Shown: positions 17,823-39,261, numbered from the stretch's first letter. The stretch: 64,000 nt of DNA from Bdellovibrionales bacterium Ga0074137 (GCA_001464715.1 LNDT01000013.1:19823-83822), one strand, 5' to 3'. The notes: generated by a model not told the origin, from the sequence alone. Numbers and translations: made by a program.

Positions 17823-17835
17823 GACCCACGGTCAC
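17823..17835 (-). repeat. 13-mer copy (plus strand reads GACCCACGGTCAC)
   Basis: Exact and intergenic. It starts 1 nt after the maeB stop codon (17820-17822). Confidence 0.95.
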
Positions 17836-17863
17836 CGATCAAAGCCGCCTTGGCTTTGGTCGG
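17835..17863 (+). terminator. hairpin after maeB (terminator-like, no immediate T-run)
   Basis: CCGATCAAAGCC-GCCTT-GGCTTTGGTCGG forms a 12-bp stem with one G-T pair. It starts at the last base of the 13-mer copy at 17823. Confidence 0.25.
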
Positions 17864-18058
17864 GTCCAGCTTCCAAGCTGCTGAAATATTATAGTTTTTC
17901 CCTGATTTGACGAACCTCTTGAATCTCGACCCAGACCTCTTCACAATTAGAAGAGGGGGACTCAAAACATCGGAAAACGAGACGTAACAACCCAACCGCT
18001 CTCTCAGCGCTGGGAATCGGGAAAAACTCTTCTCAAACCAAAAGAACGAATCGTTTGC

Positions 18059-19294: not shown

Positions 19295-19299
19295 ATCAG

Positions 19300-20625: not shown

Positions 20626-21131
20626 AGTTTCAAAATACTCGCTTTAGTTTTCTGGTCATCTTTCTTTTTTCGATCGCAGCACACGCTGCGGGTCCGTCGA
20701 TGCCGAACGTGCCAGAGCGACTGCCAGAGCCACTGACAGCACCACGCACACTGCCAGACTTCGCATTTCGGATTTGTTTTAAAGGTCCCCACGCCCGCTG
20801 CTTCGAAGGACTCACCGCTCCTGGAAAAATCCGTCAGTACGGCGGTCGTACGGATTCCGAAGCCACTGTCTCGGCGGTGGTTCTTAAGAACCTGACCCTT
20901 GAAACTGAAACGGTTTTAAGAGCAGCTGAAGCTTCAGTTAAAAGCCTAGGATCCGCAGCTCAGCTTCGCTGCACGCAGCCCTTGAAGTTTCAGCTGCGAA
21001 CCCGCGAAGCCGTCGTTTGCTTAGATCAGCTTGAGGCTCAAGAAAAACTCTCAGCGAAAGCACCCAAAGTCCTTGGGCGCCTTCTTGCACTGATCGACAC
21101 ACTCTCACTCCAGTCAAAGCCAAAAAAGTAG
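20622..21131 (+). CDS. small secreted hypothetical protein
   Basis: 169 aa with a signal peptide (FLVIFLFSIAAHAAGP). Its start overlaps the upstream stop (ATGA). Confidence 0.5.
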   Translation: MKFQNTRFSFLVIFLFSIAAHAAGPSMPNVPERLPEPLTAPRTLPDFAFRICFKGPHARCFEGLTAPGKIRQYGGRTDSEATVSAVVLKNLTLETETVLRAAEASVKSLGSAAQLRCTQPLKFQLRTREAVVCLDQLEAQEKLSAKAPKVLGRLLALIDTLSLQSKPKK

Positions 21132-21137
21132 CGAGCG

Positions 21138-21626
21138 TTAACGTCCGCGAAGTCTCAGACGAGCTTCGCGGCGTTTTTTCGCGTCAGCATTTCGGCGCTT
21201 TTCATCTTCTGTTTCTAAGATGAGTGGCGCGACTGGAAGTGGGTTTCGTTTTTCATCAAGTGCGACGAATGAAAGATAGGCGCTGGCCGTGTGAAAGGTC
21301 TCACCAGTTCTTGGATTTTCAGCATCGATTCGGACTCCGACTTCCATCGACGTCTGACCCACATAATTGATGCTGGCTTTAAGATTCACTGTCCAGCCAA
21401 TCATCACGGGCTTCACAAACTGCAAATAGTCGATAGAAGCTGTCACGACAGGTAGCCTTGAGTGACGTTGTGCCGTGATGGCTCCGCAGATGTCGATCCA
21501 AGACATGATGACGCCGCCAAAAACACTTCCAAGAGCGTTCGTGTGCTGAGGTAAAACCATTTCTGTCATTGTTGTTTTGGATTCCGAAACTCGTCGGCCT
21601 TTGGACGAATCCACCGATGCACTCAT
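21138..21626 (-). CDS. acyl-CoA thioesterase (hotdog fold, YciA-like)
   Basis: 162 aa; MVLPQHTNALGSVFGGVIMSWID is typical of the 4HBT/YciA family. Confidence 0.75.
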   Translation of the reverse strand: MSASVDSSKGRRVSESKTTMTEMVLPQHTNALGSVFGGVIMSWIDICGAITAQRHSRLPVVTASIDYLQFVKPVMIGWTVNLKASINYVGQTSMEVGVRIDAENPRTGETFHTASAYLSFVALDEKRNPLPVAPLILETEDEKRRNADAKKRREARLRLRGR

Positions 21627-22612: not shown

Positions 22613-25045
22613 TTATTCTTTCGCTCCAACGCGAAGCTTAAGTCGCTGGACTATTTCATCCGTCGACATCGCCGCTACGGGCTCGACTCCGAAGACATCA
22701 TCTATTTGTCGACCCCACGTATGAACTTTCGCCCACAAAACAGAGAGACCTTCGTCGGCAATGGCTTCGGCCGCAGCTAGGAGTGCGCCCTTCGTGTCTC
22801 GACCTCGAAAACTTAAAACCCACTCGGTCGGCGAGGCCGAACATTCGATCTCATCAAAGATCTTAAGCTCAGCCCCTTCGCAGCTTCTGTCTCTTTCTCT
22901 GGGGCCATCGGCATTCCAAATTCGCAGAAGTTTAGCTTCTAGCCCTTTGAGAGAATTCGGCGGCTTCACTTCGAACCAATCGTAAACTCCAACCTGATCA
23001 GCGGACAAAATACTCGCATGCCGCACCGAAAGGCCTGCAGCCTGAAGCGTTCGGGCCATCTTCACAAAAAGACCAGCGCGATCCACGGACGTTTGAAAAC
23101 GCACCCAGACACGCCCTTCTTTGGAAAGCTTCAACACACGCACCGAGATATTTGGCTCGCGACCCACGGTCACGATGTCTTCAGCCAAAGTCTTCACAGG
23201 AATCGTTGCGACCAAGAAAGGATCTAAACGATCAAGCAGCGGCAAGAGTTCGCGACCGGCTTTAGACTCATCAAGTTTGCGCTCGAGCGAAGAAAGCATC
23301 TTCGCTTCAGGTCTCTCTAGAAATTCTACCAGCTCCGCCAAAAGCCGTTCTTTCCATGGAGTGTAGGCCTCACGGTTGGTGGCGCGAATGTCGACACACG
23401 TAAAAATCGCCAGCCGAAGAAGGCGTTTTCCTTCAATACCTTTAGCATGGAGTCGGCGCCAGGTTGTCGGATGCGCCGGATTTCCGCGGAAAGCCGCCAG
23501 CGAAAGCTCAAGATGGTTTTCAATGAGCCAAATCACTTCCAAGATCATCTCTTGAGAGAGCCCCCATTTTTCGAGATCGTTTCTTGCGATCATCACTGAC
23601 TTATCTGAGTGATCACCACCAGTGCCCTTTCCGACATCGTGATAAAGTGCGGTCCACCCTAGAATCTTCCACTCATCCCTAGAGAGTGCTTTTGCTATTC
23701 CCGAGAGCCGCCCCAGCGTTCCAGGCTTCTGGGCGACACGTTTCATCTCGCGAACCGCTTGCATCAAGTGCGCATCGACGGTGTACCGATGGTACTGATC
23801 GTGTTGAACGTAACCCACGATCTTTTTGAAATCAGTCACGGCCAAGTCGATCCACCGCGAACGAAAAAGAGCCAGTGTGACTTTGTCGTCTTGAAGCGGA
23901 TCGACCGCGCGAGACAAAAGTCGCCCCAAGGCCTCGTTCGCACGAGTTTTCTCAAGCTCACTTTTTCGCACGGCCGATCGGTAAAGTCGAAAGCCAGTGT
24001 CTCGCGCTTTCGCCTGAACCAGCACCGTGGGCTCCTTTTCAAGCCAGGCGGCAAGCTCGACAAATTCCATTTCTTTGGAATGAAACCTCTGAAGCTTAAC
24101 TTCTGAGATTTTGACGTGCTCAAAATCAACGTCGGCATAGAACGAAACGCGCGACAGGCCTTTTTGAATCTCTCGCATAAATTCGCGACTGGATGTGAAG
24201 CCAAACCACGTGGCGATGTCGGCCTGTTCGTGAGCACTCAAAAGATCGCCGCCACCATCAGACACCTGACTTCGAATTCGAGTCAGAAGAAAAAGTCGCC
24301 GGTAGTAATCATAGACATGAAGGGCATGCTCTCGCTCTGAGCTTAAAAATCTCTCCGGAAAAAGCTGACGCAGTTGAAGCGCTTGACCAAGATCGCGAAG
24401 ACCGCCGGGGCCATATTTAAGATTGGGCTCCAAGAAATTCGCGATCGAATCGTAGCGCTCGCCTCTTTGCTTTCGCTCGTCTTTAAGGGTTTTAAAAAAA
24501 CCACGCCGAACTTTTTTTAGCTTGGCTTTGACCTTCGAAATTCCCACCGCAAAGTGAGTCGCCGCGTCCTCGGTGAGCGGTTTTGCCAATAAAAGTGCAA
24601 GAACATCGAAAGCTTCTACACCTTTCATCCAATCGTCGCGGTCTTCAGGAGTTCGACTGCGGATTTTGATGCCAGCCTCTTGAGCTCGTCGTGTAACTTC
24701 GGCCGCCGCGGCTTCGTCGCCGATAAAAAGTAGATCAAGATCTGATTTTGGCGTCAATTCACCGCGGGCCCAACTTCCCAGAGCAATCGGTCGAGACCGC
24801 GCCCAGGCCGACGCCGAGGCCGCATCCTCTGTAAAGAACGCGATGATCGCTGATTCCAAGGCCAAGGTGAAAGCCGACAAATGAAGGGTCTCTGCCGCCT
24901 CTTCTTGCCCGTCGGGAACTGTTGACGGCGGCAAAAGGTGTTTTTTCGCTAGCTCTAAGATTTCATCTTTAGGCAGAAGAAATCGCGACCGCGAAGACAT
25001 CTTACTAATTGCGCCGGTTTCTAGCTTTGAAGTTCCTTTGTCCAC
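22613..25045 (-). CDS. glnD: [protein-PII] uridylyltransferase / uridylyl-removing enzyme
   Basis: 810 aa with an NTase motif (GSWARGELTPKSDLDLLF), an HD domain (LYHDVGKG) and two C-terminal ACT-like domains. The alternative start ATG 25000 would remove the overlap with mutS. Confidence 0.8.
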   Translation of the reverse strand: MDKGTSKLETGAISKMSSRSRFLLPKDEILELAKKHLLPPSTVPDGQEEAAETLHLSAFTLALESAIIAFFTEDAASASAWARSRPIALGSWARGELTPKSDLDLLFIGDEAAAAEVTRRAQEAGIKIRSRTPEDRDDWMKGVEAFDVLALLLAKPLTEDAATHFAVGISKVKAKLKKVRRGFFKTLKDERKQRGERYDSIANFLEPNLKYGPGGLRDLGQALQLRQLFPERFLSSEREHALHVYDYYRRLFLLTRIRSQVSDGGGDLLSAHEQADIATWFGFTSSREFMREIQKGLSRVSFYADVDFEHVKISEVKLQRFHSKEMEFVELAAWLEKEPTVLVQAKARDTGFRLYRSAVRKSELEKTRANEALGRLLSRAVDPLQDDKVTLALFRSRWIDLAVTDFKKIVGYVQHDQYHRYTVDAHLMQAVREMKRVAQKPGTLGRLSGIAKALSRDEWKILGWTALYHDVGKGTGGDHSDKSVMIARNDLEKWGLSQEMILEVIWLIENHLELSLAAFRGNPAHPTTWRRLHAKGIEGKRLLRLAIFTCVDIRATNREAYTPWKERLLAELVEFLERPEAKMLSSLERKLDESKAGRELLPLLDRLDPFLVATIPVKTLAEDIVTVGREPNISVRVLKLSKEGRVWVRFQTSVDRAGLFVKMARTLQAAGLSVRHASILSADQVGVYDWFEVKPPNSLKGLEAKLLRIWNADGPRERDRSCEGAELKIFDEIECSASPTEWVLSFRGRDTKGALLAAAEAIADEGLSVLWAKVHTWGRQIDDVFGVEPVAAMSTDEIVQRLKLRVGAKE
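23161..23173 (-). repeat. 13-mer copy (plus strand reads GACCCACGGTCAC)
   Basis: Exact, inside glnD. The coding strand reads GTG ACC GTG GGT C = V-T-V-G (EDIVTVGREPN). The coordinate was cross-checked from the ORF frame. Confidence 0.95.
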
Positions 25046-27864
25046 TCTGAGATCTTGCCCAAGGCTTCAAGCGGAGTCGAGCGATTGACATCAAAGCGCT
25101 CAATCTCTTTTAAAACTCCCTCAGCTTTTGGACTGATCGCTGGCCATGAAGGCGCGTCGAGGAGAAGCGAAAGCTGAGCACTTTGCGCAACTTTGGCAGA
25201 GCTCGTCGAAACGATGGGCTCGCGATGCACGACTCCGCTTGCAACACTTCCTTGAACGTCGCGAAGAATTCGCTCGGCCCGGTTTGTTACGGACAGCGGA
25301 AGTCCCGCAAGGCGCGCGACGTGAAGTCCGTACGACTGACCCGCCTCACCGTCCTTCAGGCGATGAAGGAATGTGATGACGCCGTCTTTTTCATGAATCG
25401 CCATGTGACAGTTCCTGATGCGATCGAAGTCTTTTTTTAGCGCCGTCAGTTCGTGATAGTGTGTTGCGAACATCGTGAGACATCGCTTTTGTTCGAGCAA
25501 ATGTTCAAGTATCGCTTGAGCAATGCTCAGACCGTCAAATGTCGAAGTTCCACGCCCGATCTCGTCAAGAACGACCAGCGTTCTTTCATTCGCGTCAGCC
25601 AAAAGCTCGGCTGTTTCTTTCATCTCAACCATGAATGTTGAAAGGCCTTCGGATAAGAAATCACTCGCACCGATGCGAGTTGCCACACGATCTAAAAGTG
25701 ATAACTCGGCTTCCCGGGCTGGAACAAAACTTCCGACCTGAGCCATGATGACAGCGATGGCCGCTTGCCTCATTAAGGTCGACTTACCCGCCATGTTCGG
25801 TCCTGTTAGAAGAAGGCACCCGCCTTCATCCATACTGATATCGTTTTCGACGAACGGTTTTGAAAGAGACTGTTCGACAACGGGATGCCGTGAACCTTTC
25901 AGTCTTAGGCCGACCGGCTGCGTGGAGCTTCGAAAACGAGGTCTTATGTAACGCTCTTCACTGGCGAGATGAGCCAAAGCCGACACGACATCAAGCTCTG
26001 CCAGACTCAAAGCAAAACGCATCAAAACTTTCGACTGACTGAGTACGAACTGAACAAGTTTTAAAAACTCTTCTTCTTCCAGCTTCAAACGCTTTTCCTG
26101 AGCCGAGATGACCTTGAGCTCGAGCTCGGAGAGTTCTTTCGTCGTGAAACGTTCGGCATTGGCCAGAGTTTGCTTTCGTTCGTAGCGATCCAACGGCACT
26201 CGTTCTTTGTGCGTATTCGTGATTTCGATCGAGTAGCCGAAGACATTGTTGTAGCGAACTTTGAGTGACGAAATACCGGTGAGTTCTTTTTCTCGGGCTT
26301 CAAGCTCCAGCACAAGACGATTTGAATTCGTCGACAATTCTATCAGCTCATCAAGCGCAGGACTTGCCCCAAGGCGAATCGCTCCGCCGTTTCGAACAAG
26401 AAGTGGCGGCTCTTCCACAATCACTCGCTCAATTTCTTTGACCACACTTGAAACTAGATCGGCTTCAGCCCTCGTAAATCCTTGCGACAAGCGCTCATCC
26501 ACAGATTGGGCCGCTTGCCAGCTGCTAAGGCCCGAAGCCAAAGATTGTGCTAGCGACAAGATGTCTCGTGGACCTCTTGATGGCTGACTGATTTTTCCCA
26601 GTCTTCTTGGAAGGTCACCGACGCCGGCCAACGCTTGCCGAAGACTTTTTCTGTTGAGATCACTTTGAACCCAAGTGCTCACCCGATCATGTCTTGCCGC
26701 GATCGCCGTCTCGTCATTGAGAGGGAACTGAAGCCATGACTTAAGAAGCCTCGCGCCCCCACTCGATTTCGTGCGGTCGATGGCTTGTAGCAAAGAACCT
26801 TGCCGCTCCCCTCGATTGGTTTCAAAGATTTCTAAATGCCGAAGTGTAGAGCCCGACAAAACCATGCGTCCTTCAAGACGTCGTTCTTCAAATGGCGTTA
26901 GAGAGTCGGCCCACACCTGCGCAGCACCACGGCCGCCGGTGGTTGAGACCGTGCTTGCATTGGAGAACTGCCCGATCGAATAAGCGAGAAGGCGACGAAC
27001 ACAGTCCGGACTGTTTTTATCGACCGTCGGCTCTATGATTTCTCCGTCAGCGGCGATCCATGAAAAATCATCTTGAGCTGTGAGAGAGGCACCCATTTTG
27101 TCGGCGAATTCTTTAATCTCGGGTCTGTCGGCATTGTCGCTGGATAAAACCCACTCAACAGCCTGAAGACTTCCCAAAAATTCTCGGCATCGATCTCGCG
27201 AAACGCCGCGGAAATAAAATCCTTCGCCCGTTGAGACGTCAAAAAATGCCAACGCTCCATCAGCGTCCCACGACGCCAAATAATTCGCGCTCGACGCATC
27301 TAAAGTTTCGTGGTCATAGACCATGCCAGGCGACAGCACGCGCGTGATCCCGCGCTTCACCAAGCCTTTAGCAAATTTCGGATCTTCCAACTGATCACAG
27401 ATCGCGACTTTGAAACCGGCGTGCAAAAGTTTATTGATGATGTTGGTGGCCGAATGATGAGGCACTCCGCACATCGGCGTTTCGTCTTGCGACTTTTTAT
27501 TGCGAGACGTGAGAGCGATGCCAAGGACGGGTGCCGCGAGTTCTGCGTCCCGGTGGAACATTTCAAAAAAATCACCCATGCGGAACAAAATAATCTTGTC
27601 CGGGTGCGCGGCCTTCACATCCCAGTACTGCTGCATTAAGGGCGTTATTCGCCCTGCGGGCGAGGGCGTTATTCGCCCTGCGGGCGAGGGCGTTATTCGC
27701 CCTGCGGGCGAGGGCGTTATTCGCCCATGAGGTGAGGACGACGAGGATTTCTGGAGACCCACGGTCACTTCGGAGCCCACTTCTGAATCAACTGCCATAC
27801 CGAATTCGATATCATCACCGGCGGGAGCTCTCCTCTCCCAATGCAGCGCAACAACACTAATCAT
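25021..27864 (-). CDS. mutS: DNA mismatch repair protein MutS (start uncertain)
   Basis: The conserved MutS core starts at ITPLMQQYW...GDFFEMF and includes the Walker A TGPNMAGKST. The track ORF runs to 27945. Candidate starts are ATG 27864 (GAAGG about 10 nt upstream), ATG 27798 and ATG 27636. Confidence 0.85.
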   Translation of the reverse strand: MISVVALHWERRAPAGDDIEFGMAVDSEVGSEVTVGLQKSSSSSPHGRITPSPAGRITPSPAGRITPSPAGRITPLMQQYWDVKAAHPDKIILFRMGDFFEMFHRDAELAAPVLGIALTSRNKKSQDETPMCGVPHHSATNIINKLLHAGFKVAICDQLEDPKFAKGLVKRGITRVLSPGMVYDHETLDASSANYLASWDADGALAFFDVSTGEGFYFRGVSRDRCREFLGSLQAVEWVLSSDNADRPEIKEFADKMGASLTAQDDFSWIAADGEIIEPTVDKNSPDCVRRLLAYSIGQFSNASTVSTTGGRGAAQVWADSLTPFEERRLEGRMVLSGSTLRHLEIFETNRGERQGSLLQAIDRTKSSGGARLLKSWLQFPLNDETAIAARHDRVSTWVQSDLNRKSLRQALAGVGDLPRRLGKISQPSRGPRDILSLAQSLASGLSSWQAAQSVDERLSQGFTRAEADLVSSVVKEIERVIVEEPPLLVRNGGAIRLGASPALDELIELSTNSNRLVLELEAREKELTGISSLKVRYNNVFGYSIEITNTHKERVPLDRYERKQTLANAERFTTKELSELELKVISAQEKRLKLEEEEFLKLVQFVLSQSKVLMRFALSLAELDVVSALAHLASEERYIRPRFRSSTQPVGLRLKGSRHPVVEQSLSKPFVENDISMDEGGCLLLTGPNMAGKSTLMRQAAIAVIMAQVGSFVPAREAELSLLDRVATRIGASDFLSEGLSTFMVEMKETAELLADANERTLVVLDEIGRGTSTFDGLSIAQAILEHLLEQKRCLTMFATHYHELTALKKDFDRIRNCHMAIHEKDGVITFLHRLKDGEAGQSYGLHVARLAGLPLSVTNRAERILRDVQGSVASGVVHREPIVSTSSAKVAQSAQLSLLLDAPSWPAISPKAEGVLKEIERFDVNRSTPLEALGKISEWTKELQS
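27640..27726 (-). repeat. perfect 24-bp tandem repeat x3.6 in the 5' region of mutS
   Basis: The plus-strand unit GGGCGTTATTCGCCCTGCGGGCGA occurs at 27640, 27664 and 27688, with a partial copy at 27712-27726, all identical. It encodes (GRITPSPA)x3 + GRITP. Each unit contains the palindrome GGGCG-TTATT-CGCCC. Confidence 0.95.
27756..27768 (-). repeat. 13-mer copy (plus strand reads GACCCACGGTCAC)
   Basis: Exact, in the mutS 5' extension. It reads V-T-V-G (GSEVTVGLQK), 30 bp from the 24-bp tandem repeat. Confidence 0.95.
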
Positions 27865-30996: not shown

Positions 30997-32517
30997 ATGG
31001 AGCAAAATTCAAAGCCCGTAAAAGAACGAAAGCCAACAAAGTCGTTCGACTTAAAGCCTGGGGATCATATCCATTTCATGGGAATCTGCGGCACCGCAAT
31101 GGCTTCTCTGGCCGGCCTTCTTCACTCGCAAGGATATAAAATCACGGGATCTGACCAAAACGTTTATCCTCCGATGTCGACTCAACTTGAGTCTTTGGGA
31201 ATTAAGATTCTTTCTGGCTACAAACGCGAAAACCTGACACGAAATCCCGTAGGGACTCCGAACCTTGTTATCGTCGGAAACGTTATTTCTAGAAACTTCG
31301 AGGAAGCAGAAGCACTTCTCGAGAGCGATATTCCCTTCACAAGTCTTCCCCAGGCGATGGGTCAGATTGTCATCGGTCGTCGCCACTCGGTGGTCGTCGC
31401 CGGAACTCACGGCAAGACTACGACCACGGCGCTAAATTCGTATGTGGCCGAATCCCTAGGGCTCCATCCTGGATTCATGGTCGGTGGAATTCCAAAAAAC
31501 TTTGGGCAAAGTTACCGATTTGGTTCGGGCGATTGGTTCATTATCGAGGGCGACGAATACGATACGGCCTTCTTCGATAAGGTCCCAAAATTCATTCACT
31601 ATCGGCCGCGATCAGTGATTCTAAATTCGGTTGAATTTGACCACGCGGATATCTATAGGGATCTCGATCACGTTAAAGAAGCTTTTCTTATGTTGATCGA
31701 TCTGATTCCTGAGGGTGGACTTCTCATAGCTTGCGAGGATGAAGAGACAATCCGCGATCTTTTATCTCGTCGAAAAGAAAGTTTAGCGAAAAGAAATGTC
31801 AAAGTTGTAACTTTTGGTCTCACGCGCGGTGATCATCGAGCTGAGAATTTGGAAGCCGTTCCTGTCAAAGGGCTCGGTTCAAAAGAACAAGCTTTGCGCC
31901 TTGGAACACGTTTTTCCTACCGCGGTCAGAAAATCGACATCCCGATGATCGGCTCTTACAACGTAAAGAACGCTCTAGCGACGATAGCGCTATGGACGGA
32001 ACTGGGGCACCCAGCGTCCGAGATTGCTCCACGCCTTCTTGGCTTTGAAGGTGTAAAACGCCGTCAAGAAGTTCTGGGAACTCCCGGTGGCGTCACGGTG
32101 ATCGAGGATTTCGCGCACCACCCGACGGCCGTTCGAGAAACGATCCGCACTGTTCAAATGCAGTATCCGAAGTCCCACGTTTTTTCGATTTTTGAAGCGC
32201 GCTCGGCGACATCGCGCCGAAATGTTTTTCAAGACGAGTACGCAGCAGCTTTCATCGATGCAGGAACTCAAAGTCTTTTGCTGCCTCCACCCTTTAATCT
32301 TGCCGGCTTAAAAGAGGCCGATCGTTTTTCAACCGACGTACTCTTAAAACGACTGCATGATTCCAAAGTCGACGCGGTTCTTTTTGATGGAGTTGATTCC
32401 ATCGTAAAAAATGTCATCTCCCGTGCAAAACCCGGAGATGTCGTTCTCGTCATGTCCAATGGTGGCTTTGACGGAATCTATCAGAAGCTTCTGTCGAGCT
32501 TAGAAAGTGTTCGCTAA
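30997..32517 (+). CDS. mpl: UDP-N-acetylmuramate:L-alanyl-gamma-D-glutamyl-meso-DAP ligase (murein peptide ligase)
   Basis: 506 aa; HFMGICGTAMASLAGLL is the Mpl-type N-terminus. It has the Mur ligase central domain (GTHGKTTTT) and ends MSNGGFDGIYQKLL. Confidence 0.75.
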   Translation: MEQNSKPVKERKPTKSFDLKPGDHIHFMGICGTAMASLAGLLHSQGYKITGSDQNVYPPMSTQLESLGIKILSGYKRENLTRNPVGTPNLVIVGNVISRNFEEAEALLESDIPFTSLPQAMGQIVIGRRHSVVVAGTHGKTTTTALNSYVAESLGLHPGFMVGGIPKNFGQSYRFGSGDWFIIEGDEYDTAFFDKVPKFIHYRPRSVILNSVEFDHADIYRDLDHVKEAFLMLIDLIPEGGLLIACEDEETIRDLLSRRKESLAKRNVKVVTFGLTRGDHRAENLEAVPVKGLGSKEQALRLGTRFSYRGQKIDIPMIGSYNVKNALATIALWTELGHPASEIAPRLLGFEGVKRRQEVLGTPGGVTVIEDFAHHPTAVRETIRTVQMQYPKSHVFSIFEARSATSRRNVFQDEYAAAFIDAGTQSLLLPPPFNLAGLKEADRFSTDVLLKRLHDSKVDAVLFDGVDSIVKNVISRAKPGDVVLVMSNGGFDGIYQKLLSSLESVR

Positions 32518-33121
32518 AAAGTTCGACAACACGGCGCCAACTTTTTCCTTTTTGAAGAAGCTTACGGGACGGAACAAATCCTTGAGCTTCTAGCTGGTTC
32601 AAAGTGACGTAGTCTCTTACGGTTCTAAAGTGCCTTCCCCAATAAACACGCTTCGAGTAGGGACGTGCATCCCAAAATCCACGCTCCACTACGGCATCTC
32701 GGCCAGTATTCCCTCCCTTCCCTCCCTTCCCTCCCTTAACCCCCTTCCCTCGACCCACGGTCACCTTCCTTTGATCGGCGATTCTTCGGAATCCGACAGC
32801 TCTTGCGATCCCACCAGCGAGGCCCGAAATAAACCCCTTCCACTTGAGTGGCCGAGTCACTCTCAAATGAATGTGAATGTGGTTCCCAACATTGGCGAAC
32901 TTATAGATCGTAACTCCGTGACGTTCCGACATCCCGCGAATGAGCCGTTGAATCTTTGCTTCGTTCTTTAGAAGACTCATTCGGCCTCGCGCGAGCGAAC
33001 TACGCATCACCACGTGCATAGATTGGTACGACACCACGGGACGCCGTACTCGAACACTTCGGGTCGTTCGCTTTCCGGGATTAAAAACTTCAGGAGTAAG
33101 TTGGCGTTTGATTTTTTTCAT
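32450..33121 (-). CDS. HUH / Y1 tyrosine transposase-like protein (IS200/IS605 TnpA superfamily, RAYT-like), single copy
   Basis: It has HVVMRSS...IYKFANVGNHIHIHLRV (HUH motif) and RGFWDARPYSKRVY...RTVRDYVTLNQ (catalytic-Tyr Yxxx(N)(Q/P) block). A low-complexity insert lies between the two motifs and carries one 13-mer copy and a KGG x3 repeat. I saw no tnpB and no IS ends. The 3' end overlaps mpl convergently by 68 bp. The track ORF start is 33139; ATG 33121 (MKKIKRQL) is preferred. Confidence 0.6.
   Translation of the reverse strand: MKKIKRQLTPEVFNPGKRTTRSVRVRRPVVSYQSMHVVMRSSLARGRMSLLKNEAKIQRLIRGMSERHGVTIYKFANVGNHIHIHLRVTRPLKWKGFISGLAGGIARAVGFRRIADQRKVTVGRGKGVKGGKGGKGGNTGRDAVVERGFWDARPYSKRVYWGRHFRTVRDYVTLNQLEAQGFVPSRKLLQKGKSWRRVVELFSEHFLSSTEASDRFRQSHHWT
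32711..32737 (-). repeat. perfect 9-bp tandem repeat x3 (CCCTCCCTT on + strand) inside the Y1 gene
   Basis: Copies at 32711-32719, 32720-32728 and 32729-32737 are identical. They encode KGG-KGG-KGG and lie 14 nt from the 13-mer copy at 32752. Confidence 0.95.
32752..32764 (-). repeat. 13-mer copy (plus strand reads GACCCACGGTCAC)
   Basis: Exact, inside the Y1 transposase-like gene. It reads V-T-V-G (QRKVTVGRGKG). Confidence 0.95.
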
Positions 33122-33238
33122 GAGCCACACGCTCAGCAAATTCGAAACTGCGGTCCTTAGAAACGTAGCGAATCCTCACCAAAATCCGGGATCCTTAAGT
33201 CCGATTTACGAACCCTGTTGTTGGTCCGAGTCGCAGCC

Positions 33239-33251
33239 GTGACCGTGGGTC
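33239..33251 (+). repeat. 13-mer copy GTGACCGTGGGTC, array member 1
   Basis: Exact and intergenic, upstream of the Y1 gene start. Confidence 0.95.
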
Positions 33252-33271
33252 AGAAGATGGCTAGGTGTCGT

Positions 33272-33284
33272 GTGACCGTGGGTC
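33272..33284 (+). repeat. 13-mer copy GTGACCGTGGGTC, array member 2
   Basis: Exact and intergenic, 33 bp after member 1. Confidence 0.95.
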
Positions 33285-33296
33285 AAAGTTGAAGTG

Positions 33297-33309
33297 GTGA
33301 CCGTGGGTC
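33297..33309 (+). repeat. 13-mer copy GTGACCGTGGGTC, array member 3 (extends to palindrome GTGACCGTGGGTCAC)
   Basis: Exact, 25 bp after member 2. The next two bases (AC) complete 6-bp arms around a GTG centre. It overlaps the TGA stop (33308-33310) of the hydrolase gene. Confidence 0.95.
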
Positions 33310-34495
33310 ACTGGAGGGCGGTTTTTACTAAGGTGTGCAGGGCTGGTCGGAGCTGGAGGAAGCGTGTGTTCTTTCGAGTTGGGTGGACTCGATTCGATAA
33401 AATAGTGACCAATAAGTCGGATTTTGGATCGTACCACAGCGATGTTCCGGTAAAACCTGTGTGACCGATACTCGAAAGTGAAAACTTCGGTCCACACGAT
33501 GCGCTCCCTTTCGTTGGCATCATAAAACCCAAGGCCCAGTCGCCTTTTGACCTTGAAACGGCGCGGTCCAAAAATTTTCGTCCCGATAATGGCAATTTTG
33601 ATTTCATCCCGAGGTGAAGTTTTCTCAACTCAAGTCCGTAACGGCTCAAATCTCCGATGGGGCCGAAAAGACCAGCATGAGGCGCTATCCCCTTTAGACT
33701 CGACGTATTCTCATCGTGCACTTCACTTTTTAGACCCCGCTTACGCCACGTCGAATCGAATTCGGTGGGCGCAGTTTCCGAAACGCGGTCCTTATTCCAG
33801 ATGAGACCGGGCCGAGCAGCTCCGTCTCGCTTCAAATCATTTTTTGAAAGTGCATTATAGAAAGTAGATTTAAGACCAAGTCGCTCCTGAATTCTGGCGT
33901 ACTGCTCTGGAAATCCCATGAGACTTGAGCGTCTCAAAATTTCGCCGAGTAAAAAGAAATCCAAATCCGAATAGATCGCAGAACCTCGCTGCGCCTTCGA
34001 GATTTCTCCACTCCTCGCCCGTTTCCTCACGTCCCGAACGACCAAATCAAAGAGCAGCGTCCACGCCTCTTCATGAGTTCCAGGAGATTTTAAAGATACC
34101 TGCTTGTAAAATGGCTTCCACCACGTCATTCCCGCCGAGTGGCAGAGAAGGTCTCTGATCGTCAATCGGCCAAGCGGTGACCGTGGGTCCATGAGAGAGG
34201 GGGATGGGAGGAGTTCAGGGAGCCAGTTAACGACGGGGTCTTTTAAGGAGAGGTGACCTTCGTCGACTTCGATCATGGTGCTTGAGACTGACATCACGAT
34301 TTTTGTCAGCGAGGCCCAATCATAGATCTCCGACGTTTCACCGCAAGCGACGTCGATTCGAAGTTTTCCGCTCTCCCACGCCTGCAGTCGAAATCCCGGG
34401 GCTGCATCTTGCCACTGTGATCCATCTTTTGGATGAGTCCAATTGTCCAAAAGATTCAGAAACGACTTTTCGACCGGTCGAGCTCGACGTGACAT
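33308..34495 (-). CDS. beta-lactamase-family serine hydrolase (AmpH / DD-peptidase-like)
   Basis: 395 aa with the S-x-x-K motif (DWASLTKIV) and a class C / PBP4*-like fold. Its start overlaps the ldcA stop. Confidence 0.7.
   Translation of the reverse strand: MSRRARPVEKSFLNLLDNWTHPKDGSQWQDAAPGFRLQAWESGKLRIDVACGETSEIYDWASLTKIVMSVSSTMIEVDEGHLSLKDPVVNWLPELLPSPSLMDPRSPLGRLTIRDLLCHSAGMTWWKPFYKQVSLKSPGTHEEAWTLLFDLVVRDVRKRARSGEISKAQRGSAIYSDLDFFLLGEILRRSSLMGFPEQYARIQERLGLKSTFYNALSKNDLKRDGAARPGLIWNKDRVSETAPTEFDSTWRKRGLKSEVHDENTSSLKGIAPHAGLFGPIGDLSRYGLELRKLHLGMKSKLPLSGRKFLDRAVSRSKGDWALGFMMPTKGSASCGPKFSLSSIGHTGFTGTSLWYDPKSDLLVTILSNRVHPTRKNTRFLQLRPALHTLVKTALQ
34177..34189 (+). repeat. 13-mer copy GTGACCGTGGGTC
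   Basis: Exact, inside the AmpH-like hydrolase gene. The coding strand reads GAC CCA CGG TCA C = D-P-R-S (LMDPRSPLG). Confidence 0.95.
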
Positions 34496-35511
34496 TAGCG
34501 CACCGACTTCAGAGAAATTTCTTTTGGAAAAGAGACCGCTGTTTCTATTTCAATGGAGCTTGACCGAAGATCAATAACCGCTTCGGTGCCGATCGGAAAA
34601 ACGCGCTGACTGACACCGTGACCGCTGGCGATACCGCTCAAAACGGTAACGCCATTTTTCTGCGCCCAATCTTGAGCAAATCTTTCGATCACTGCGGAAA
34701 CTTTCGAGGACCCATCGGGCTCAAGCCCACCCAGAAATTCTCCAAAGACAATAGCCTTCGTTCGCCGCGACAAAACACCACTTTGAACAAGTTGTTCAAG
34801 CACGCGATCCACCCGGTAGCCACGCTCACCAAGCTCTTCAAAAAACACAATCTGACCCACGGTCACAGGATGAAGTGCCGTTCCAATCGCCGACGCGAAG
34901 GTCACCAAATTCCCACCCATCGTTCGCCCACGAAGGCGTTTCTCTTTCGGCACTCGAACTTTATTGAGCGATCTCAAACCCTCGTACAAAACTGTCGAAG
35001 TCTCACCGAATACAATTCGTCTCAGCTCTTCAACCTGAGCGTCGATAGGACGCGGCTTCAGATCACTCACAAGATTTGAATCGATACACCGACCGAGTCG
35101 GTCAAGAAGCGGCGCCTGAAGGCTTGGCCATTTCCAGGTTTGTGAAAGCCAAAGCTGGATGGTTGTCACATCACTAAAGCCCAATAGAATTTTTGAGTGC
35201 TTTGGTCTTTTCAATTTCATGAGCTGAGGCACAAGCCGAATAGATCCATAGCCGCCGCGAAGGCACCAGATCGCTTTTGAATCCTTCGCCAAAAGCGCAT
35301 TGGCCAAATGCTTCAGTCTTTTCTCATCGACATGACTTGCGATGACGTCCGCTCCAAAAAGATCTTTCGGAAGTCTCGCCTTAAGCCCCCAAGATTCAAG
35401 AAACTGAACCCCGGCTTCGACTTCAGCATCCGTCGGACGAAATCCGGGCGCAATCACATCGACAATATCGCCAGCTTTTAGAGCCGACCAACTTGCGTAT
35501 TTAGAGACCAC
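34495..35511 (-). CDS. ldcA: muramoyltetrapeptide LD-carboxypeptidase (peptidase S66)
   Basis: 338 aa with GDIVDVIAPG, the Ser nucleophile in GFSDVTT, FFEELGERGYRVDRVLEQL and the His in ASGHG. Confidence 0.75.
   Translation of the reverse strand: MVSKYASWSALKAGDIVDVIAPGFRPTDAEVEAGVQFLESWGLKARLPKDLFGADVIASHVDEKRLKHLANALLAKDSKAIWCLRGGYGSIRLVPQLMKLKRPKHSKILLGFSDVTTIQLWLSQTWKWPSLQAPLLDRLGRCIDSNLVSDLKPRPIDAQVEELRRIVFGETSTVLYEGLRSLNKVRVPKEKRLRGRTMGGNLVTFASAIGTALHPVTVGQIVFFEELGERGYRVDRVLEQLVQSGVLSRRTKAIVFGEFLGGLEPDGSSKVSAVIERFAQDWAQKNGVTVLSGIASGHGVSQRVFPIGTEAVIDLRSSSIEIETAVSFPKEISLKSVR
34854..34866 (-). repeat. 13-mer copy (plus strand reads GACCCACGGTCAC)
   Basis: Exact, inside ldcA. It reads V-T-V-G (LHPVTVGQIVFF). 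It is the only copy right of 33.2 kb in this orientation. Confidence 0.95.
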
Positions 35512-36931
35512 GGATATTTCCTTTCGGGATCAGATCGAGGCCGTGAAGTGACGTCGGATACTTTCCATCAAAGCAGGCAGCACAGAATCCACCATTTTCG
35601 CCGCGAACCGCCGTCATCAATCCCTCCATGCTCAAATACCTAAGCGTGTCGGCACCAACAAAAGCGCAGATTTCATTGACCGTCTGGCGGCTTGCGATCA
35701 GCTGTGATTTCTCAGGAGTGTCGACACCGTAATAACAAGGCCCTACTGTGGGAGGCGCTGCGATTCGAAGATGAACTTCTTTTGCGCCTGCGGCGCGCAC
35801 AAGTGAAATTATCTTTTTCGAAGTTGTTCCGCGGACAAGAGAGTCATCAAGAACGACAACTTTTTTTCCTTTCAACACAGCCTGCTGCGGGTTGAGCTTA
35901 ATCTTGACGCCAAAGTCGCGAATCGCTTGATGAGGTTGGATAAAGGTGCGGCCGATGTAGTGATTTCGAATAATTCCAAGCTCAAAGGGCTTTCCGCTTT
36001 CAACACTGTAGCCTAAGGCCGATGGAACGCCGCTATCTGGAACTGGAATGACGACATCAAAATCAATCGGAGCAGCTTCGCTGGCATCCTGGCGAGCTAA
36101 AAGCTGTCCCGCACGTTTACGAACTTCATAAACGCTCTCGCCAAATATAATTGAATCCGGGCGCGCGAAATAAACGTGTTCAAAGACGCAGGCCTTTCTT
36201 GGCTGAGGCGTGCCAAATTTGACCGAGTGTTCTCCTGTATCGTCGACCCACCAGATTTCTCCCGGCTCAATTTCGCGAACAAACTTAGCCCCGATCAGAT
36301 CAAACGCGCACGTTTCGCTGGCGACGACATAGGAATCAGCTCCGCCGGGATCTTTTAAACGCCCCAAAACCAACGGACGAAAACCCATCGGGTCCCGAGC
36401 GGCGATCATCGAGCGATGAGAAAGAACGGTGAAACTAAATGCACCTTCAAGCTGACTGAGCCCGGACTTCAAACATTCGATCAGATCCGATGAAGGATAC
36501 TTTGCGATCATGTGCAAAATGACTTCGGTATCATTGGTGCCTTGAAAAATCGAACCTTCGGCCTTCAACTTTTCCCTTAGAGGACCGGCATTGACGATAT
36601 TCCCGTTGTGAGCAACAGCGACAGGACCATTAGAAAGATTCGCCTGAAGAGGTTGAAAGTTGGCCATTTGATTCATGCCGGTCGTCGCATAGCGAACGTG
36701 ACCGATCGCGGCCCGTCCGGTGAGGCTATCGAGCGTCTGATCACTGAAGACTTCAGACACAAGACCAGGCCCCTTGTGAAGTCGCTGACTGGCTTCATCA
36801 AGAGTCACAATCCCTGCGGACTCTTGTCCTCGGTGCTGAATGGCATAGAGAGACAAGTAGGCCAAGCGACTGGCGTGTTGATGATTCCAAATTCCAATGA
36901 CTCCGCACTCGTCTTTAAAACTCTTCATCAA
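35501..36931 (-). CDS. purF: amidophosphoribosyltransferase
   Basis: 476 aa with the N-terminal CGVIGIW Ntn-amidotransferase motif and a PRTase domain ([13 protein letters not shown]). Confidence 0.9.
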
Positions 36932-39261
36932 TACTGTCTTTCAAATGAGAGATTTTTAAAGGCGCTGGACCATCCCGAGTCGTAGTCCATTTTCAATTCT
37001 AAAAGATTCACATCCAAAGTTCCTTCCGGATCGGTGTCCGAAGAAGATCCGGACTCGATTACAAAACGGTGACCGTGGGTCGTTCCAATCAAGTGAAGTG
37101 ACCGTGGGTCGCCGCCGTGAGAGGCGAACCGATTGCGAAGAGCTTCTAAGCTTTCAGTGCTTGAGATCAGGACTTCGTAGGAGACTTCACAAAACAAAGA
37201 TTCAGCAAAGCTCATCTTAGCCAGATCGGGCCTCGCAGCCTGGGTCGCTGAGCGACTGAGGCGAACGCCGATATTCTTTGAGATCGCCATTCGCGCCAAC
37301 GCGTAGCCAAGACCGAACTTACCAACCACACGAGTTGCCGAAATCGTATTCTCTGTAGCCGGAGAATGAGGCCCAACACCTTCGGTGAGCTTTCGGAGCG
37401 AAGTGACGAGGGCAGCGATTTCTTTTCCGTTCAGCGTCCCGAAAGCTCGAGGCCCTGTACTTTCCGGGCCCGTGACTTCTCCCATCGCGCCGCTGGTCCA
37501 GAGTTGTGGAAGCCGCAGCAAAAATACGTTTTCGCCTTCATGTACGAAATCGCTTTTTGGAAGTGAAGTGACCGTGGGTCGTAGGCCGACGACGCCAGTT
37601 GAAGGCGTTGGTGTGATCCCGCGACCTTCGGTTTCGTTATAAAAGCTGACGTTACCGCTGATGATCGGAGCCACTAGGCTTTCACAAATTTCGTTGAGGC
37701 CAGAAAGAGCTGCGACAAAAGAGCTCATCACCGGAACTCTTTCCGGATTTCCGAAATTCAAACAGTCCGTAACGGCCAGTGGCTCAAAACCTTTTGCCGC
37801 AAGCTCAAGGGCTGGAAATGCAACAGCATCAAGCCCCCCTTCTCTCGCATCAAGTCTCATCATTTGAGGCCGACACCCTAAAACAATTCCTAATCCCCGC
37901 CCAGAGTCCTTCAAGCGAATGACACCGACGGATTCGTGGCAATCGGCCGCCGTGGATGCTCCAACGTGACCGTCATATTGCCGAAAAATAAATTCCCGCG
38001 AACATCCTTGTGGAGATGAAAGTGCTGTCCTCAGCGAGGCACGAATATCTGCAGCACTTTCGCCAGCGATATCGGCGACACTAGCCACCCGGTTCGACGG
38101 CGTCCACGGTTCGAATGGTCGTTCGTACATCGGTGCATGCTCTGTCAAAAGCTCGGGATCGATCTCCGTAAGAAGATCTCCCTTCCAAAAAAGCTTCATC
38201 GTTTTTTTCGCTGTGACTTCGCCGATAGCGACGGCTTCAAGTCCCCAACGTTTAAACAATGCTTCCACATTAGAAAGTTTCGCTGGCTCCACAACCATCA
38301 ACATTCGCTCTTGGCTTTCGCTCAGGAGAATGTCCTCGGGTTGAAGCGTAGACTCGCGCAAAGGAACGCGGTCCAAATGTAGGTTGAAGCCGACGCCACC
38401 CTTGGATGCCATTTCAAAAGAAGATGAAGTAAGTCCTGCGGCGCCCATATCTTGTATCGCCACGACGAGATCTTGCTCCATCACTTCAAGACACGCCTCG
38501 ATCAAAAGCTTCTCAAAAAACGGATCTCCGATCTGAATTGTCGGACGTTTTTTTTCGGAGTCCTTTCCAAAACTTTCCGAAGCCATGCTCGCTCCGTGAA
38601 CGCCATCACGTCCCGTCTTGGCTCCTGCGTACACCACAAGATTTCCGACACCTTTGGCTTTCGACAAAAAGACTTTCTCGCCTTTTCTAAAAAGACCGAC
38701 GGCCATTGCATTCACGAGAACGTTTTTGTCATAGCTAGGATCGAATTCAGTCTGTCCTGTGATTGTCGGAACCCCGACCGGGTTACCATAACCACCGATA
38801 CCGCGAACAACTCCATCAACAATCTTTTCCATTCGTTCGGCCTGGGGACGTCCGAAACAAAGATAGTCTGCGACGGCGATCGGTCGCGCGCCCATCGTGA
38901 AAATATCGCGCAGGATACCACCGACACCCGTCGTGGCTCCTTGATAGGGCTCAATAAAACTTGGATGATTGTGGCTTTCGATTTTAAAGGCCACACGCTC
39001 GCCATCGCCAAGATCAACGACGCCGGCATTTTCGCCAAAGCTCTGAAGCACGCGCTCAGATTTATTGAATAGACCTTTTAAATGAACTCGCGAACTTTTG
39101 TACGAGCAGTGTTCGCTCCACATGGCCGAGAAAAGCGCCCACTCGACGCCCTGAGGCTCTCGCCCCAAAAGTCCGGCGATACGGCGATGCTCCGACTCAT
39201 TTAATCGGTAATGTTTTAGTTTTTCTTGGAGTTCTTTGTTGTCGCGCTGATCTTGCCCCAT
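36928..39261 (-). CDS. purL: phosphoribosylformylglycinamidine synthase subunit PurL (FGAM synthase II)
   Basis: Duplicated AIRS-type domains ([20 protein letters not shown]). ATG 39261 lies 6 nt after the purQ stop. The track ORF extends to 39315. Confidence 0.9.
37069..37081 (+). repeat. 13-mer copy GTGACCGTGGGTC
   Basis: Exact, at the purL 3' end. The coding strand reads G ACC CAC GGT CAC = T-H-G-H (IGTTHGHRF). Confidence 0.95.
37098..37110 (+). repeat. 13-mer copy GTGACCGTGGGTC
   Basis: Exact, in purL. It reads D-P-R-S (GGDPRSLHL) and sits in the 21-nt block AAGTGAAGTGACCGTGGGTCG (37091-37111). Confidence 0.95.
37568..37580 (+). repeat. 13-mer copy GTGACCGTGGGTC
   Basis: Exact, in purL. 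It reads GA CCC ACG GTC AC = P-T-V-T (LRPTVTSLP). The identical 21-nt block occurs at 37561-37581. Confidence 0.95.

What the first reader, a model, noticed from the sequence alone, without database searches (positions are those of the whole stretch)
17823..37580. Thirteen perfect copies of the 13-mer GTGACCGTGGGTC in 20 kb, none in the other 44 kb
Exact copies start at plus-strand positions 17823, 23161, 27756, 30760, 32752, 33239, 33272, 33297, 34177, 34854, 37069, 37098 and 37568. One 12/13 copy starts at 29992. For a fixed 13-mer on both strands of 64 kb, the chance expectation is about 2x64000/4^13 = 0.002.

Nine of the 13 lie inside unrelated housekeeping ORFs: glnD, mutS, the S9 peptidase, the Y1 gene, the AmpH-like hydrolase, ldcA and purL (three copies). 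Classical extragenic REP/BIME elements, CRISPR repeats and IS termini do not sit inside ORFs like this.

Spacing shrinks toward about 33.2 kb. From the left the gaps are 5338, 4595, 2236, 768, 1992, 487, 33 and 25 bp. To the right they are 880, 677, 2215, 29 and 470 bp, and then nothing for 26 kb. Density therefore peaks at an intergenic triple array next to an HUH/Y1 transposase-like gene.

Thirteen perfect copies against only one or two degenerate ones implies very recent spread or active maintenance. I know of no described system that combines a short exact word, intragenic location, local clustering and polarity.
Basis: seen in the sequence. Interest (0 to 1): 0.9.

Follow-up and report, generated by a model that had tools for sequence, protein, structure and literature searches.

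The report
Oriented 13-base word around Y1 nuclease gene
A 13-base DNA word is repeated on both sides of a single REP-transposase-like (HUH/Y1) nuclease gene, always pointing away from it, mostly inside neighbouring housekeeping genes, and it has stayed letter-perfect across species; this is an unusual local version of the known REP/RAYT repeat system.

Summary
There are 13 exact copies of GTGACCGTGGGTC and one 12/13 copy in 20 kb, and none in 53 kb of flanking DNA.

Copies upstream of the Y1 gene (32450-33121, minus strand) are antisense to it, and copies inside or downstream of it are sense. Across 14 Y1 loci, 44 of 46 copies obey this rule.

The Y1 protein has intact HUH and Tyr motifs, and its model best matches the E. 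coli REP-associated transposase (4ER8).

Two other species share this gene order at about 77% DNA identity. They keep the word exact at the same positions, so the copies are maintained, not recently spread.

A more distant syntenic relative has only two copies: one just upstream of Y1 and one inside it. A relative with Y1 in a different neighbourhood has nine oriented copies there. The window's own copy of that neighbourhood has no Y1 and no copies.

New copies arise in two ways: by in-frame insertion, and by replacement that leaves gene length unchanged. There is no excess of degenerate copies.

Best reading: this is a REPtron-like system in which a divergent RAYT-like nuclease has a minimal 13-nt cognate word. 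Its local, polar and mostly intragenic spread is new. The mechanism of spread is inferred, not shown.

The parts
32450..33121 (-). Y1/HUH nuclease gene (223 aa, protein P0001), the centre of the system
   Evidence: Residues H81, H83, Y171 and N175 are invariant in 15 homologues. The family profile hits IS608 TnpA at E=1.4e-3 with the HUH and Y motifs aligned. The AlphaFold model (pLDDT 74.8) best matches 4ER8, the E. coli REP-associated tyrosine transposase (E=1e-4, rmsd 2.9 A). The gene sits in the same gene order in L023, L027 and L115.
32752..32764 (-). [quoted passage not shown]
   Evidence: The copy is exact in L023 and L027. An in-gene copy lies 358-412 nt after the start codon in W, L028, L029 and L115. 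It falls in a low-confidence surface loop of the model, residues 118-144.
33239..33309 (+). Three direct copies (33239, 33272, 33297), 118-188 bp upstream of Y1 and antisense to it; the last overlaps the beta-lactamase-like stop codon
   Evidence: An antisense copy 10-300 bp upstream of Y1 is present in every locus of the clade with at least 42% Y1 identity. These intergenic copies are less well conserved between species than the intragenic ones.
34177..34189 (+). Copy inside the beta-lactamase/AmpH-like gene, antisense to the gene (peptide DPRSP)
   Evidence: Exact in L023 and L027. The outgroup L115 has unrelated sequence at this site.
34854..34866 (-). Copy inside ldcA (peptide VTVGQ), the one copy that breaks the polarity rule
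   Evidence: Exact, and on the same strand, in L023 and L027. It replaces four codons with no change in length: IHP-VTVG-QIV here against IHP-NSAD-QIL in L115, and HA-PAG-SIL in PDB 1ZL0.
37069..37110 (+). Two direct copies (37069 and 37098) in the C-terminal part of purL, antisense to the gene (peptides DPRSL and TTHGH)
   Evidence: Both are exact in L023 and L027. L115 reads HGG-LASA-LHLLG-TVGGS over the same length.
37568..37580 (+). Copy in purL (peptide RPTVT), the outermost copy on the upstream side
   Evidence: L115 has an 8/13 match of the same length at this site. The site aligns to a variable loop of PDB 3VIU.
30760..30772 (-). Copy in the S9 peptidase gene just after the lipoprotein signal peptide (peptide VTVGQ)
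   Evidence: Exact in L023, with an indel directly on its 3' side.
29992..30004 (-). Variant copy GTGACCGTGGATC (12/13) in the S9 peptidase gene (peptide VTVDQ)
   Evidence: The same variant is conserved at the orthologous site in L023.
27756..27768 (-). Copy in the mutS leader or N-terminal ORF extension
   Evidence: Exact in L023, where it lies 57 bp upstream of the called mutS start.
23161..23173 (-). Copy in glnD between the HD and ACT domains (peptide VTVGR)
   Evidence: L023 has GTGAGCGTGGGTA (11/13) at this site.
17823..17835 (-). Outermost downstream copy, intergenic, starting 1 bp after the stop codon of the malic-enzyme/PTA gene
   Evidence: It lies 15.3 kb from the Y1 start and still has the orientation the rule predicts.
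32709..32751 (-). 9-bp x 4.8 purine-rich tandem repeat abutting the 3' edge of the in-gene copy; it encodes the variable GKGG insert of Y1
   Evidence: The insert differs in length and sequence in P0001, P0002 and P0003 and is absent from more distant homologues.
27639..27726 (-). Perfect 24-bp x 3.7 tandem repeat 30 bp from the 3' side of the copy at 27756
   Evidence: It is absent at the orthologous place in L023.

Best explanation
RTGACCGTGGGTC is the cognate DNA word of the single-copy HUH/Y1 nuclease encoded at 32450-33121. It is the functional counterpart of a REP sequence, and the nuclease is a divergent relative of REP-associated tyrosine transposases.

The ancestral core is a REPtron-like unit. 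One copy lies just upstream of the gene, antisense to it. One copy lies inside the gene, sense to it, in a surface loop between the HUH and Tyr motifs.

From that core, copies have been seeded outward into neighbouring DNA. Each lies on the strand on which the word reads 5'->3' away from the gene. Some arrived as short in-frame insertions. Others replaced existing sequence without changing its length, in tolerant loops, leaders and spacers. Once installed they are kept letter-perfect.

Shown: the link to Y1, the polarity, the local restriction, the conservation, and the two modes of origin.

Inferred: the Y1 enzyme recognises the word on single-stranded DNA, cuts at or near its 3' edge, acts preferentially in cis, and is itself responsible for installing and/or restoring the copies.
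For: 1. Y1 is a RAYT-like HUH enzyme with catalytic residues intact. JGI annotates some of its homologues as 'REP element-mobilizing transposase RayT'.

2. Polarity: 44 of 46 copies in 14 Y1 loci are antisense upstream and sense in or downstream (binomial p about 1.5e-11, though some loci are closely related). The rule holds in three unrelated gene neighbourhoods: W, L028 and L029.

3. Dependence on Y1 in cis: L029 carries Y1 between an acyltransferase gene and an SH3-domain gene and has 9 oriented copies. The orthologous block in the window's own genome (window 3233-14287) has no Y1 and no copies.

4. Local restriction: no copies in 53 kb of flanking DNA. Among 497 kb around 80 more distant Y1 genes the word (at most one mismatch) occurs only directly upstream of Y1 in the seven loci of the 41-44% identity group, apart from one isolated one-mismatch hit.

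5. Minimal core: L115 has the same gene order and a Y1 that is 51% identical, but carries only the upstream and in-gene copies.

6. Maintenance: motif columns are 97.6% identical against 72.5% for flanks. Nine of 12 copies are exact in L023 and 6 of 9 in all three species, against backgrounds of 6.3% and 0.87%.

7. All-or-none: there is no excess of copies with 2-4 mismatches.

8. Mobility: the Mpl protein of L012 has a clean 44-aa in-frame insertion carrying three copies. There are also insertions at the ldcA 5' end in L023 and L027, and several in L029 relative to the empty site.

9. Indels and the window's two highest-scoring tandem repeats sit on the 3' side of copies.

10. Literature: RAYT genes are always flanked by inverted REPs (PMC2817692). 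In-frame REPs inside tnpA_REP between HUH and Y, and in other genes, are described (PMC6006769).
Against: - There is no biochemistry. Nothing here shows that Y1 binds or cuts the word.
- The word lacks the canonical 5' GT[AG]G. Its hairpin is only 4 bp (-1.8 kcal/mol, no better than shuffles).
- The Y motif is Y-x3-NQ, not the class-2 Y-x3-NP. No NCBIfam RAYT model matches.
- Classical REPs are extragenic and scattered genome-wide in hundreds of copies. Here most copies are intragenic and all are within 15 kb of the gene.
- Several copies replace exactly four codons between conserved anchors. No known Y1 cut-and-paste reaction does this.
- Strict cross-species conservation fits selection for a host function at least as well as selfish spread.
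- The rest of the genome could not be examined.
Confidence: 0.6

Rival explanations
1. The copies are a host-selected array of polar protein-binding sites, comparable to Ter, KOPS or Chi but local. The Y1 protein, or another factor, uses the oriented words to direct or stop a DNA-tracking process toward or away from this point. Point mutation creates the copies and selection keeps them; the enzyme does not install them.
For: - Strict two-sided polarity about one point.
- Letter-perfect conservation at orthologous sites, including synonymous positions.
- Length-neutral replacement of existing codons.
- The exception in ldcA and the 12/13 variant in the S9 peptidase gene are themselves conserved.
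Against: - There is no gradient of partial sites, which gradual evolution of binding sites should leave.
- Sites in the outgroup share only 3-8 of 13 bases, so there is no selectable path from them.
- Some copies clearly arrive as insertions carrying several copies at once.
- The array re-forms around Y1 in unrelated gene neighbourhoods and is absent from the same neighbourhood without Y1.
- GC skew does not change sign here, so this is not a chromosomal origin or terminus.
Confidence: 0.25
2. The word is over-represented genome-wide (like uptake signals, HIP1 or Chi), and the cluster next to Y1 is coincidental.
For: - The same 12-mer occurs in many tandem arrays in Lujinxingia vulgaris, a distant predatory bacterium.
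- Only part of the source genome could be inspected.
Against: - There are 13 copies in 20 kb and none in 53 kb of adjoining DNA.
- The flip in orientation sits on Y1 in three unrelated gene neighbourhoods.
- There is a presence/absence match with Y1 at the L029/L117 locus.
- A scan of one genome for each of 185,579 species for two close copies found only one Bdellovibrionales contig.
Confidence: 0.04
3. The repeat reflects a recurring peptide (VTVG) or an assembly or chimera artefact, not a DNA-level element.
For: All six gene-sense copies are in the frame that encodes VTVG or VTVD.
Against: - Four intragenic copies are antisense to their genes and lie in three different frames.
- Four more copies (17823, 33239, 33272, 33297) are intergenic or overlap a stop codon, and the 'mutS' copy at 27756 is probably in the leader.
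- Synonymous positions are conserved.
- One of the three sense frames contains TGA, so the frame bias is partly forced.
- The copies are present in independent assemblies from different samples.
Confidence: 0.01

Closest known systems
REPtron: a REP-associated tyrosine transposase (RAYT / TnpA_REP) gene with its cognate REP sequences
   Same: - A single-copy, vertically inherited HUH/Y1 gene.
- The gene is flanked by its repeat in inverted orientation.
[quoted passage not shown] 2018.
- There are occasional in-frame copies in other genes.
- The best structural match of the protein is E. coli RAYT bound to a REP hairpin (4ER8).
   Different: - The word is 13 nt with a 4-bp stem and has no GT[AG]G.
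- Copies are not REPIN doublets.
- Most copies are intragenic.
- All copies seen lie within 15 kb of the gene, with strict side-specific strand polarity.
- Several arose with no change in length.
- The Y motif is Y-x3-NQ, and no curated RAYT model matches.
IS200/IS605 family (IS608, ISDra2) TnpA with subterminal hairpins
   Same: - The same HUH/Y1 fold and catalytic residues.
- The family acts on single-stranded DNA and cuts next to a short specific sequence, with orientation tied to one strand.
   Different: - There is no multi-copy element, no left- and right-end hairpins in direct orientation, and no tnpB.
- The gene keeps its position across species.
- Orientation flips at the gene, not at the replication origin or terminus.
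Rickettsia palindromic elements (RPE): selfish repeats inserted in frame in protein-coding genes (from my own knowledge, Ogata et al. 2000)
   Same: Short repeats are tolerated in frame inside housekeeping genes, in surface loops. An example here is the 44-aa insert in Mpl of L012.
   Different: - RPEs are 100-150 bp, dispersed genome-wide, and have no linked transposase gene.
- They show no polarity around a locus.
Polar chromosomal words: KOPS pointing to dif, Chi, and Ter sites around tus or rtp (from my own knowledge)
   Same: - Short non-palindromic words whose orientation reverses at one point.
- They are tolerated inside genes.
- In the Ter systems the gene for the binding protein lies next to its sites.
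   Different: - Those words track replication arms over megabases, and the flip coincides with a switch in GC skew. Here GC skew is constant.
- Here the array spans 20 kb and moves with the Y1 gene.

Membership tests
REP/RAYT (REPtron) | Encodes an HUH/Y1 protein with the HUH metal site and the catalytic Tyr | tested here: met
   H81, H83, Y171 and N175 are invariant. The profile aligns HUH and Y to IS608 TnpA at E=1.4e-3. The model matches 4ER8 at E=1e-4 with rmsd 2.9 A.
REP/RAYT (REPtron) | Gene flanked by at least two cognate repeats in inverted orientation (Nunvar 2010) | tested here: met
   The antisense copies at 33239-33309 and the sense copy at 32752 bracket the 5' half of the gene. 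The same holds in L028, L029 and L115. Definition from PMC2817692.
REP/RAYT (REPtron) | Repeat is a palindromic hairpin with a 5' GT[AG]G at its foot | tested here: not met
   The word begins RTGA. Its stem is 4 bp and the fold energy is -1.8 kcal/mol, reached by 40 of 200 shuffles. Quentin 2018 does accept atypical, weakly structured repeats for subclass 2.6 and class 3.
REP/RAYT (REPtron) | Repeats are extragenic and dispersed genome-wide in high copy number | tested here: not met
   At least 8 of 13 copies are intragenic. There are none in 53 kb of flanking DNA. The whole genome was not available, so the total copy number is unknown.
REP/RAYT (REPtron) | Class-2 sequence signature Y-x3-NP, or a match to a curated RAYT model | tested here: not met
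   The motif is DYVTLNQ, i.e. Y-x3-NQ. NCBIfam gives only a weak IS200 hit at 16 bits against a cut-off of 55. Pfam Y1_Tnp scores 21.3 bits against a cut-off of 23.
REP/RAYT (REPtron) | Single-copy gene, vertically inherited, with the repeat co-varying with the protein clade | tested here: met
   There is one Y1 gene in the window. Gene order is shared by W, L023, L027 and L115. The word is present with Y1 at 42% identity or more and absent at 39% or less. Position -1 is G or A depending on lineage.
IS200/IS605 insertion sequence | Multi-copy mobile unit with left- and right-end hairpins on one strand, often with tnpB | tested here: not met
   There is a single gene, inverted flanking copies and no tnpB-like ORF nearby.
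Replication-linked polar words (KOPS, Chi, Ter) | Orientation switch coincides with the replication origin or terminus (sign change in GC skew) | tested here: not met
   GC skew is negative in 61 of the 63 sliding windows and shows no sustained sign change; cumulative skew is monotonic apart from one step near 15-17 kb.
Uptake-signal or HIP-like genome-wide words | Roughly uniform density along the genome | tested here: not met
   0.65 copies per kb over 20 kb, against 0 in 53 kb.

The most novel reading that the evidence does not exclude
The Y1 nuclease writes its own 13-nt recognition word into neighbouring DNA. It does this directionally (3'-ward along each strand from a two-copy core) and often without changing the length of the target. 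It then keeps the copies perfect. This would be a cis-acting, templated sequence drive that builds a polar array of single-strand processing sites inside essential genes. No such activity is described for any HUH enzyme.
Probability: 0.25. Interest if true: 0.85.

Novelty: new variant of a known kind. Interest (0 to 1): 0.65.

Why it matters
What RAYT-type nucleases do, and how their repeats spread, is still unsettled. In the classical systems hundreds of REPs are scattered over the genome, which hides any direction or order in the process.

Here the system is reduced to a 13-nt word, one gene and a dozen copies. Their positions, strands and ages can be read off directly:
- a two-copy core;
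- outward, strand-specific seeding;
- natural with-gene and without-gene versions of the same locus;
- both insertion and length-neutral replacement.

That makes concrete predictions testable with oligonucleotides and one purified protein: which strand is recognised, cleavage at the 3' edge, and action in cis. It also shows that essential genes (purL, ldcA, glnD) can carry conserved, non-coding-driven 13-mers that constrain their codons.

Tried and rejected
- Literature search for the word and its reverse complement: one irrelevant primer hit.
- Chromosomal origin or terminus: rejected, because GC skew is constant.
- Transcription-linked or lagging-strand-linked orientation: rejected. Genes on both sides are mostly on the minus strand and the whole window lies in one replication arm, yet the word flips strand at Y1.
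- Longer conserved element around the word: none. Only a purine at -1 and a mildly purine-rich 3' flank.
- Stable hairpin: weak, not distinguishable from shuffles.
- Own repeats around more distant Y1 genes (39% identity or less): none found. Two apparent 24-bp arrays next to such genes are coding repeats in neighbouring proteins.
- Tandem repeats as a general 3'-side signature: seen for the window's two highest-scoring tandem repeats, but not reproduced in other loci.
- Exact-protein look-ups for purL (longest ORF) and for the right-end ORF returned nothing, so the window could be extended only to the left.
- The hits in Plantibacter, Nocardia, Streptomyces and Ramlibacter were not examined. 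They are probably chance tandem repeats in high-GC genomes.
Full report
**Observation.** GTGACCGTGGGTC occurs 13 times exactly in the window, at the coordinates given, against 0 expected. With up to two mismatches only two more sites appear: the 12/13 copy at 29992 and a chance-level site at 8732. Copies with 2, 3 or 4 mismatches occur at the numbers expected from shuffles (1/16/133 against 1.6/15/114). The family is therefore all-or-none. It is the only strongly over-represented 10- to 12-mer in the 64 kb.

All six copies left of about 33.1 kb are on the minus strand, and seven of the eight to the right are on the plus strand.

No conserved sequence extends beyond the word, except that the first base is always a purine (23 G and 13 A among 36 copies from ten loci). 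The word can form a 4-bp hairpin (GACC/GGTC with a GTG loop), but this is weak at -1.8 kcal/mol.

**Genes.** The region encodes these proteins:
- malic enzyme/PTA, and HflX;
- GlnD, MutS, an S9 peptidase, and an Mpl/MurC-like ligase;
- a 223-aa Y1 protein (32450-33121, minus strand);
- a beta-lactamase-like protein, LdcA, PurF, and small PurL.

Eight copies are clearly intragenic. The 'mutS' copy is probably in the leader. Two copies of the triple array are intergenic, and the third overlaps a stop codon. The copy at 17823 starts one base after a stop codon.

All six gene-sense copies are in the frame that reads VTVG or VTVD. Antisense copies use all three frames.

GC skew is negative in all but two of the sliding windows and never shows a sustained sign change, so the centre is not a chromosomal origin or terminus.

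**Authenticity.** Window 31118-44495 is identical to JGI metagenome contig 3300002461|AADWTP_10006182. Window 1-14287 is identical to part of AADWTP_10001508. The Y1 protein is also in NCBI WGS LNFM01. The organism is a Bdellovibrionales/Oligoflexia-type bacterium, judging from the names attached to homologues and related contigs.

**The Y1 protein.**
- Pfam and NCBIfam give only sub-threshold IS200/Y1_Tnp hits.
- Forty-one homologues were found. Several carry PF01797, and JGI names some of them 'REP element-mobilizing transposase RayT'.
- In a 15-sequence alignment the HUH histidines (H81, H83), Y171 and N175 are invariant.
- The family profile aligns these residues to IS608 TnpA (E=1.4e-3).
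- An AlphaFold model (pLDDT 74.8, core above 90) matches E. coli RAYT bound to a REP hairpin best (4ER8, E=1.1e-4, rmsd 2.9 A). IS608 and ISDra2 TnpA follow.
- The Y motif is Y-x3-NQ. This differs from class 2 (Y-x3-NP) and class 1 (Y-x3-Q) of Quentin et al. 2018.
- The in-gene copy of the word encodes (V/M)TVGR. This peptide is shared by the closer homologues P0002-P0008 and lies just before the invariant GFW, in a loop the model leaves disordered (residues 118-144). P0001-P0003 have a variable insert immediately after it.

**Comparative evidence: conservation.** L023 (Y1 76% identical) and L027 (72%) come from other samples and share the window's gene order at about 77% DNA identity. A three-way alignment shows the word exact at orthologous positions:
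- all three purL sites, the ldcA site (including its 'wrong' strand), the beta-lactamase-like site and the Y1 site, in all three species;
- the S9 peptidase and mutS-leader sites in W and L023;
- the 12/13 variant in both W and L023.

Motif columns are 97.6% identical against 72.5% for the 36-nt flanks. Only 6.3% of 13-nt windows are fully conserved between W and L023, and 0.87% in all three. The observed values are 9 of 12 and 6 of 9. So the copies are old and maintained. The intergenic triple array is the least conserved part.

**Comparative evidence: link to Y1.** L028 (58% identity, next to the mraZ/ftsI gene cluster) and L029 (54%, thiolase/acyltransferase/SH3 neighbourhood) carry Y1 in unrelated contexts. 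They have 8 and 9 copies (at most one mismatch). The copies are antisense upstream of Y1 and sense inside or downstream of it.

Over 14 loci, 44 of 46 copies obey this rule.

The L029 neighbourhood also exists in the window's own genome (window 3233-14287). There the acyltransferase and SH3 genes are adjacent, there is no Y1, and there are no copies. This is a natural with/without control.

L115 (51% identity, same gene order as the window, about 70% DNA identity) has just two copies, one 11 bp upstream and one in the gene. The clade at 42-49% identity has only the upstream copy. Y1 genes at 39% identity or less have none.

**How copies arise.** Using L115 as outgroup, several sites are replacements of equal length between conserved anchors:
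- ldcA: IHP-VTVG-QIV against IHP-NSAD-QIL;
- purL: [10 protein letters not shown] against HGG-LASA-LHL;
- purL: GLRP-TVT-S against GLRP-SVD-H.

At the four equal-length sites, L115 shares only 3-8 of the 13 bases. Solved homologues confirm that these are ordinary loops.

Other copies are insertions:
- a 44-aa in-frame insert with three copies in Mpl of a Bdellovibrionales MAG, in a protein otherwise highly conserved;
- one or two copies at the ldcA 5' end in L023 and L027;
- several L029 copies relative to the empty site.

Whether L115 lost copies or the W group gained them cannot be decided from one outgroup. The different sets in L012, L028 and L029 show that gains do occur.

**Interpretation.** The anatomy is that of a REPtron: a RAYT-like gene bracketed by inverted copies of its cognate repeat, with one copy in frame inside the gene. 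Nunvar 2010 and Quentin 2018 describe both features. I therefore read the word as the recognition site of this Y1 nuclease.

Geometrically, on each side the word lies on the strand whose 5'->3' direction leads away from the gene. This is what one expects if each of the two core copies spawns new copies 3'-ward on its own strand. It also fits a process that starts at the gene and exposes or tracks that strand outward. That step is inference.

Indels and the window's two highest-scoring tandem repeats abut the 3' edge of copies. This hints at DNA breakage or stalling there, but the pattern was not reproduced in other loci.

Length-neutral replacement and strict conservation are not explained by known Y1 chemistry. 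They keep open a host-selected polar-site function. The two views are not mutually exclusive.

**Novelty.** The kind is known (REP/RAYT). The variant is not described: a minimal 13-nt word with no GT[AG]G, mostly intragenic, confined to about 15 kb either side of the gene, strictly polar, conserved across species, and partly created without indels.

A search of papers found no mention of the word and no RAYT work on Bdellovibrio-like bacteria.

Noticed in passing
L002, L003, L005, L011 and 12 further loci of Lujinxingia vulgaris TMQ2: A distant predatory bacterium (Bradymonadales) carries the same 12-mer, TGACCGTGGGTC, in many intergenic tandem arrays of 22-23-bp units (up to 16 units) on at least 9 scaffolds. 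In L011 one array starts about 70 bp from a class-2-like Y1 ORF (NHLHIVL ... YVLLNPVKAGLV) that is only about 24% identical to the window's Y1. Array orientation there does not follow the polarity rule.
   Followed up: partly
window 3233-14287 (= L117 1-11055): This block is the empty-site counterpart of the Y1 locus of L029: the same thiolase / ECH-3HCDH / acyltransferase / SH3 genes, but no Y1. Two 2-mismatch relics of the 12-mer core lie close to where Y1 would sit, at window 9619-9630 (TGATCGTGGGCC) and 8733-8744 (TGACCGTGGTTT). Their number in L117 is not above chance (4 hits against about 1.75 expected, my own estimate).
   Followed up: partly
window 27639-27726: A perfect 24-bp x 3.7 tandem repeat (AGGGCGTTATTCGCCCTGCGGGCG) lies in the mutS leader or ORF extension, 30 bp from the 3' side of a copy of the word. 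It is absent from L023.
   Followed up: partly
window 32709-32751, and 34190-34225: Purine-rich tracts directly follow two copies: (GGGAGGGAA)n after the in-gene copy, and gagagagggggatgggaggag after the beta-lactamase-like copy. Over 36 copies the 3' flank is about 63% purine, against about 50% on the 5' side.
   Followed up: partly
L115 9990-10003 and L031 9990-10003: In these relatives the upstream copy abuts the Y1 start codon (GACCCACGGTCATG). The mRNA would therefore carry the complement of the word as a small hairpin directly before AUG, which might allow translational autoregulation.
   Followed up: no
L012 604-682: The Mpl ligase of a Bdellovibrionales MAG tolerates a 44-aa insertion made of three copies of the word plus spacers (GPTVT / RPTVT / GPTVT). 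Flanking protein sequence is highly conserved between L012 and the window's Mpl.
   Followed up: yes
L053 9126-9620 and L077 10880-11130: There are 24-bp-period arrays next to distant Y1 genes. They proved to be coding repeats (proline-rich and VIPQPTST repeats) in neighbouring genes and are unrelated to the word.
   Followed up: yes
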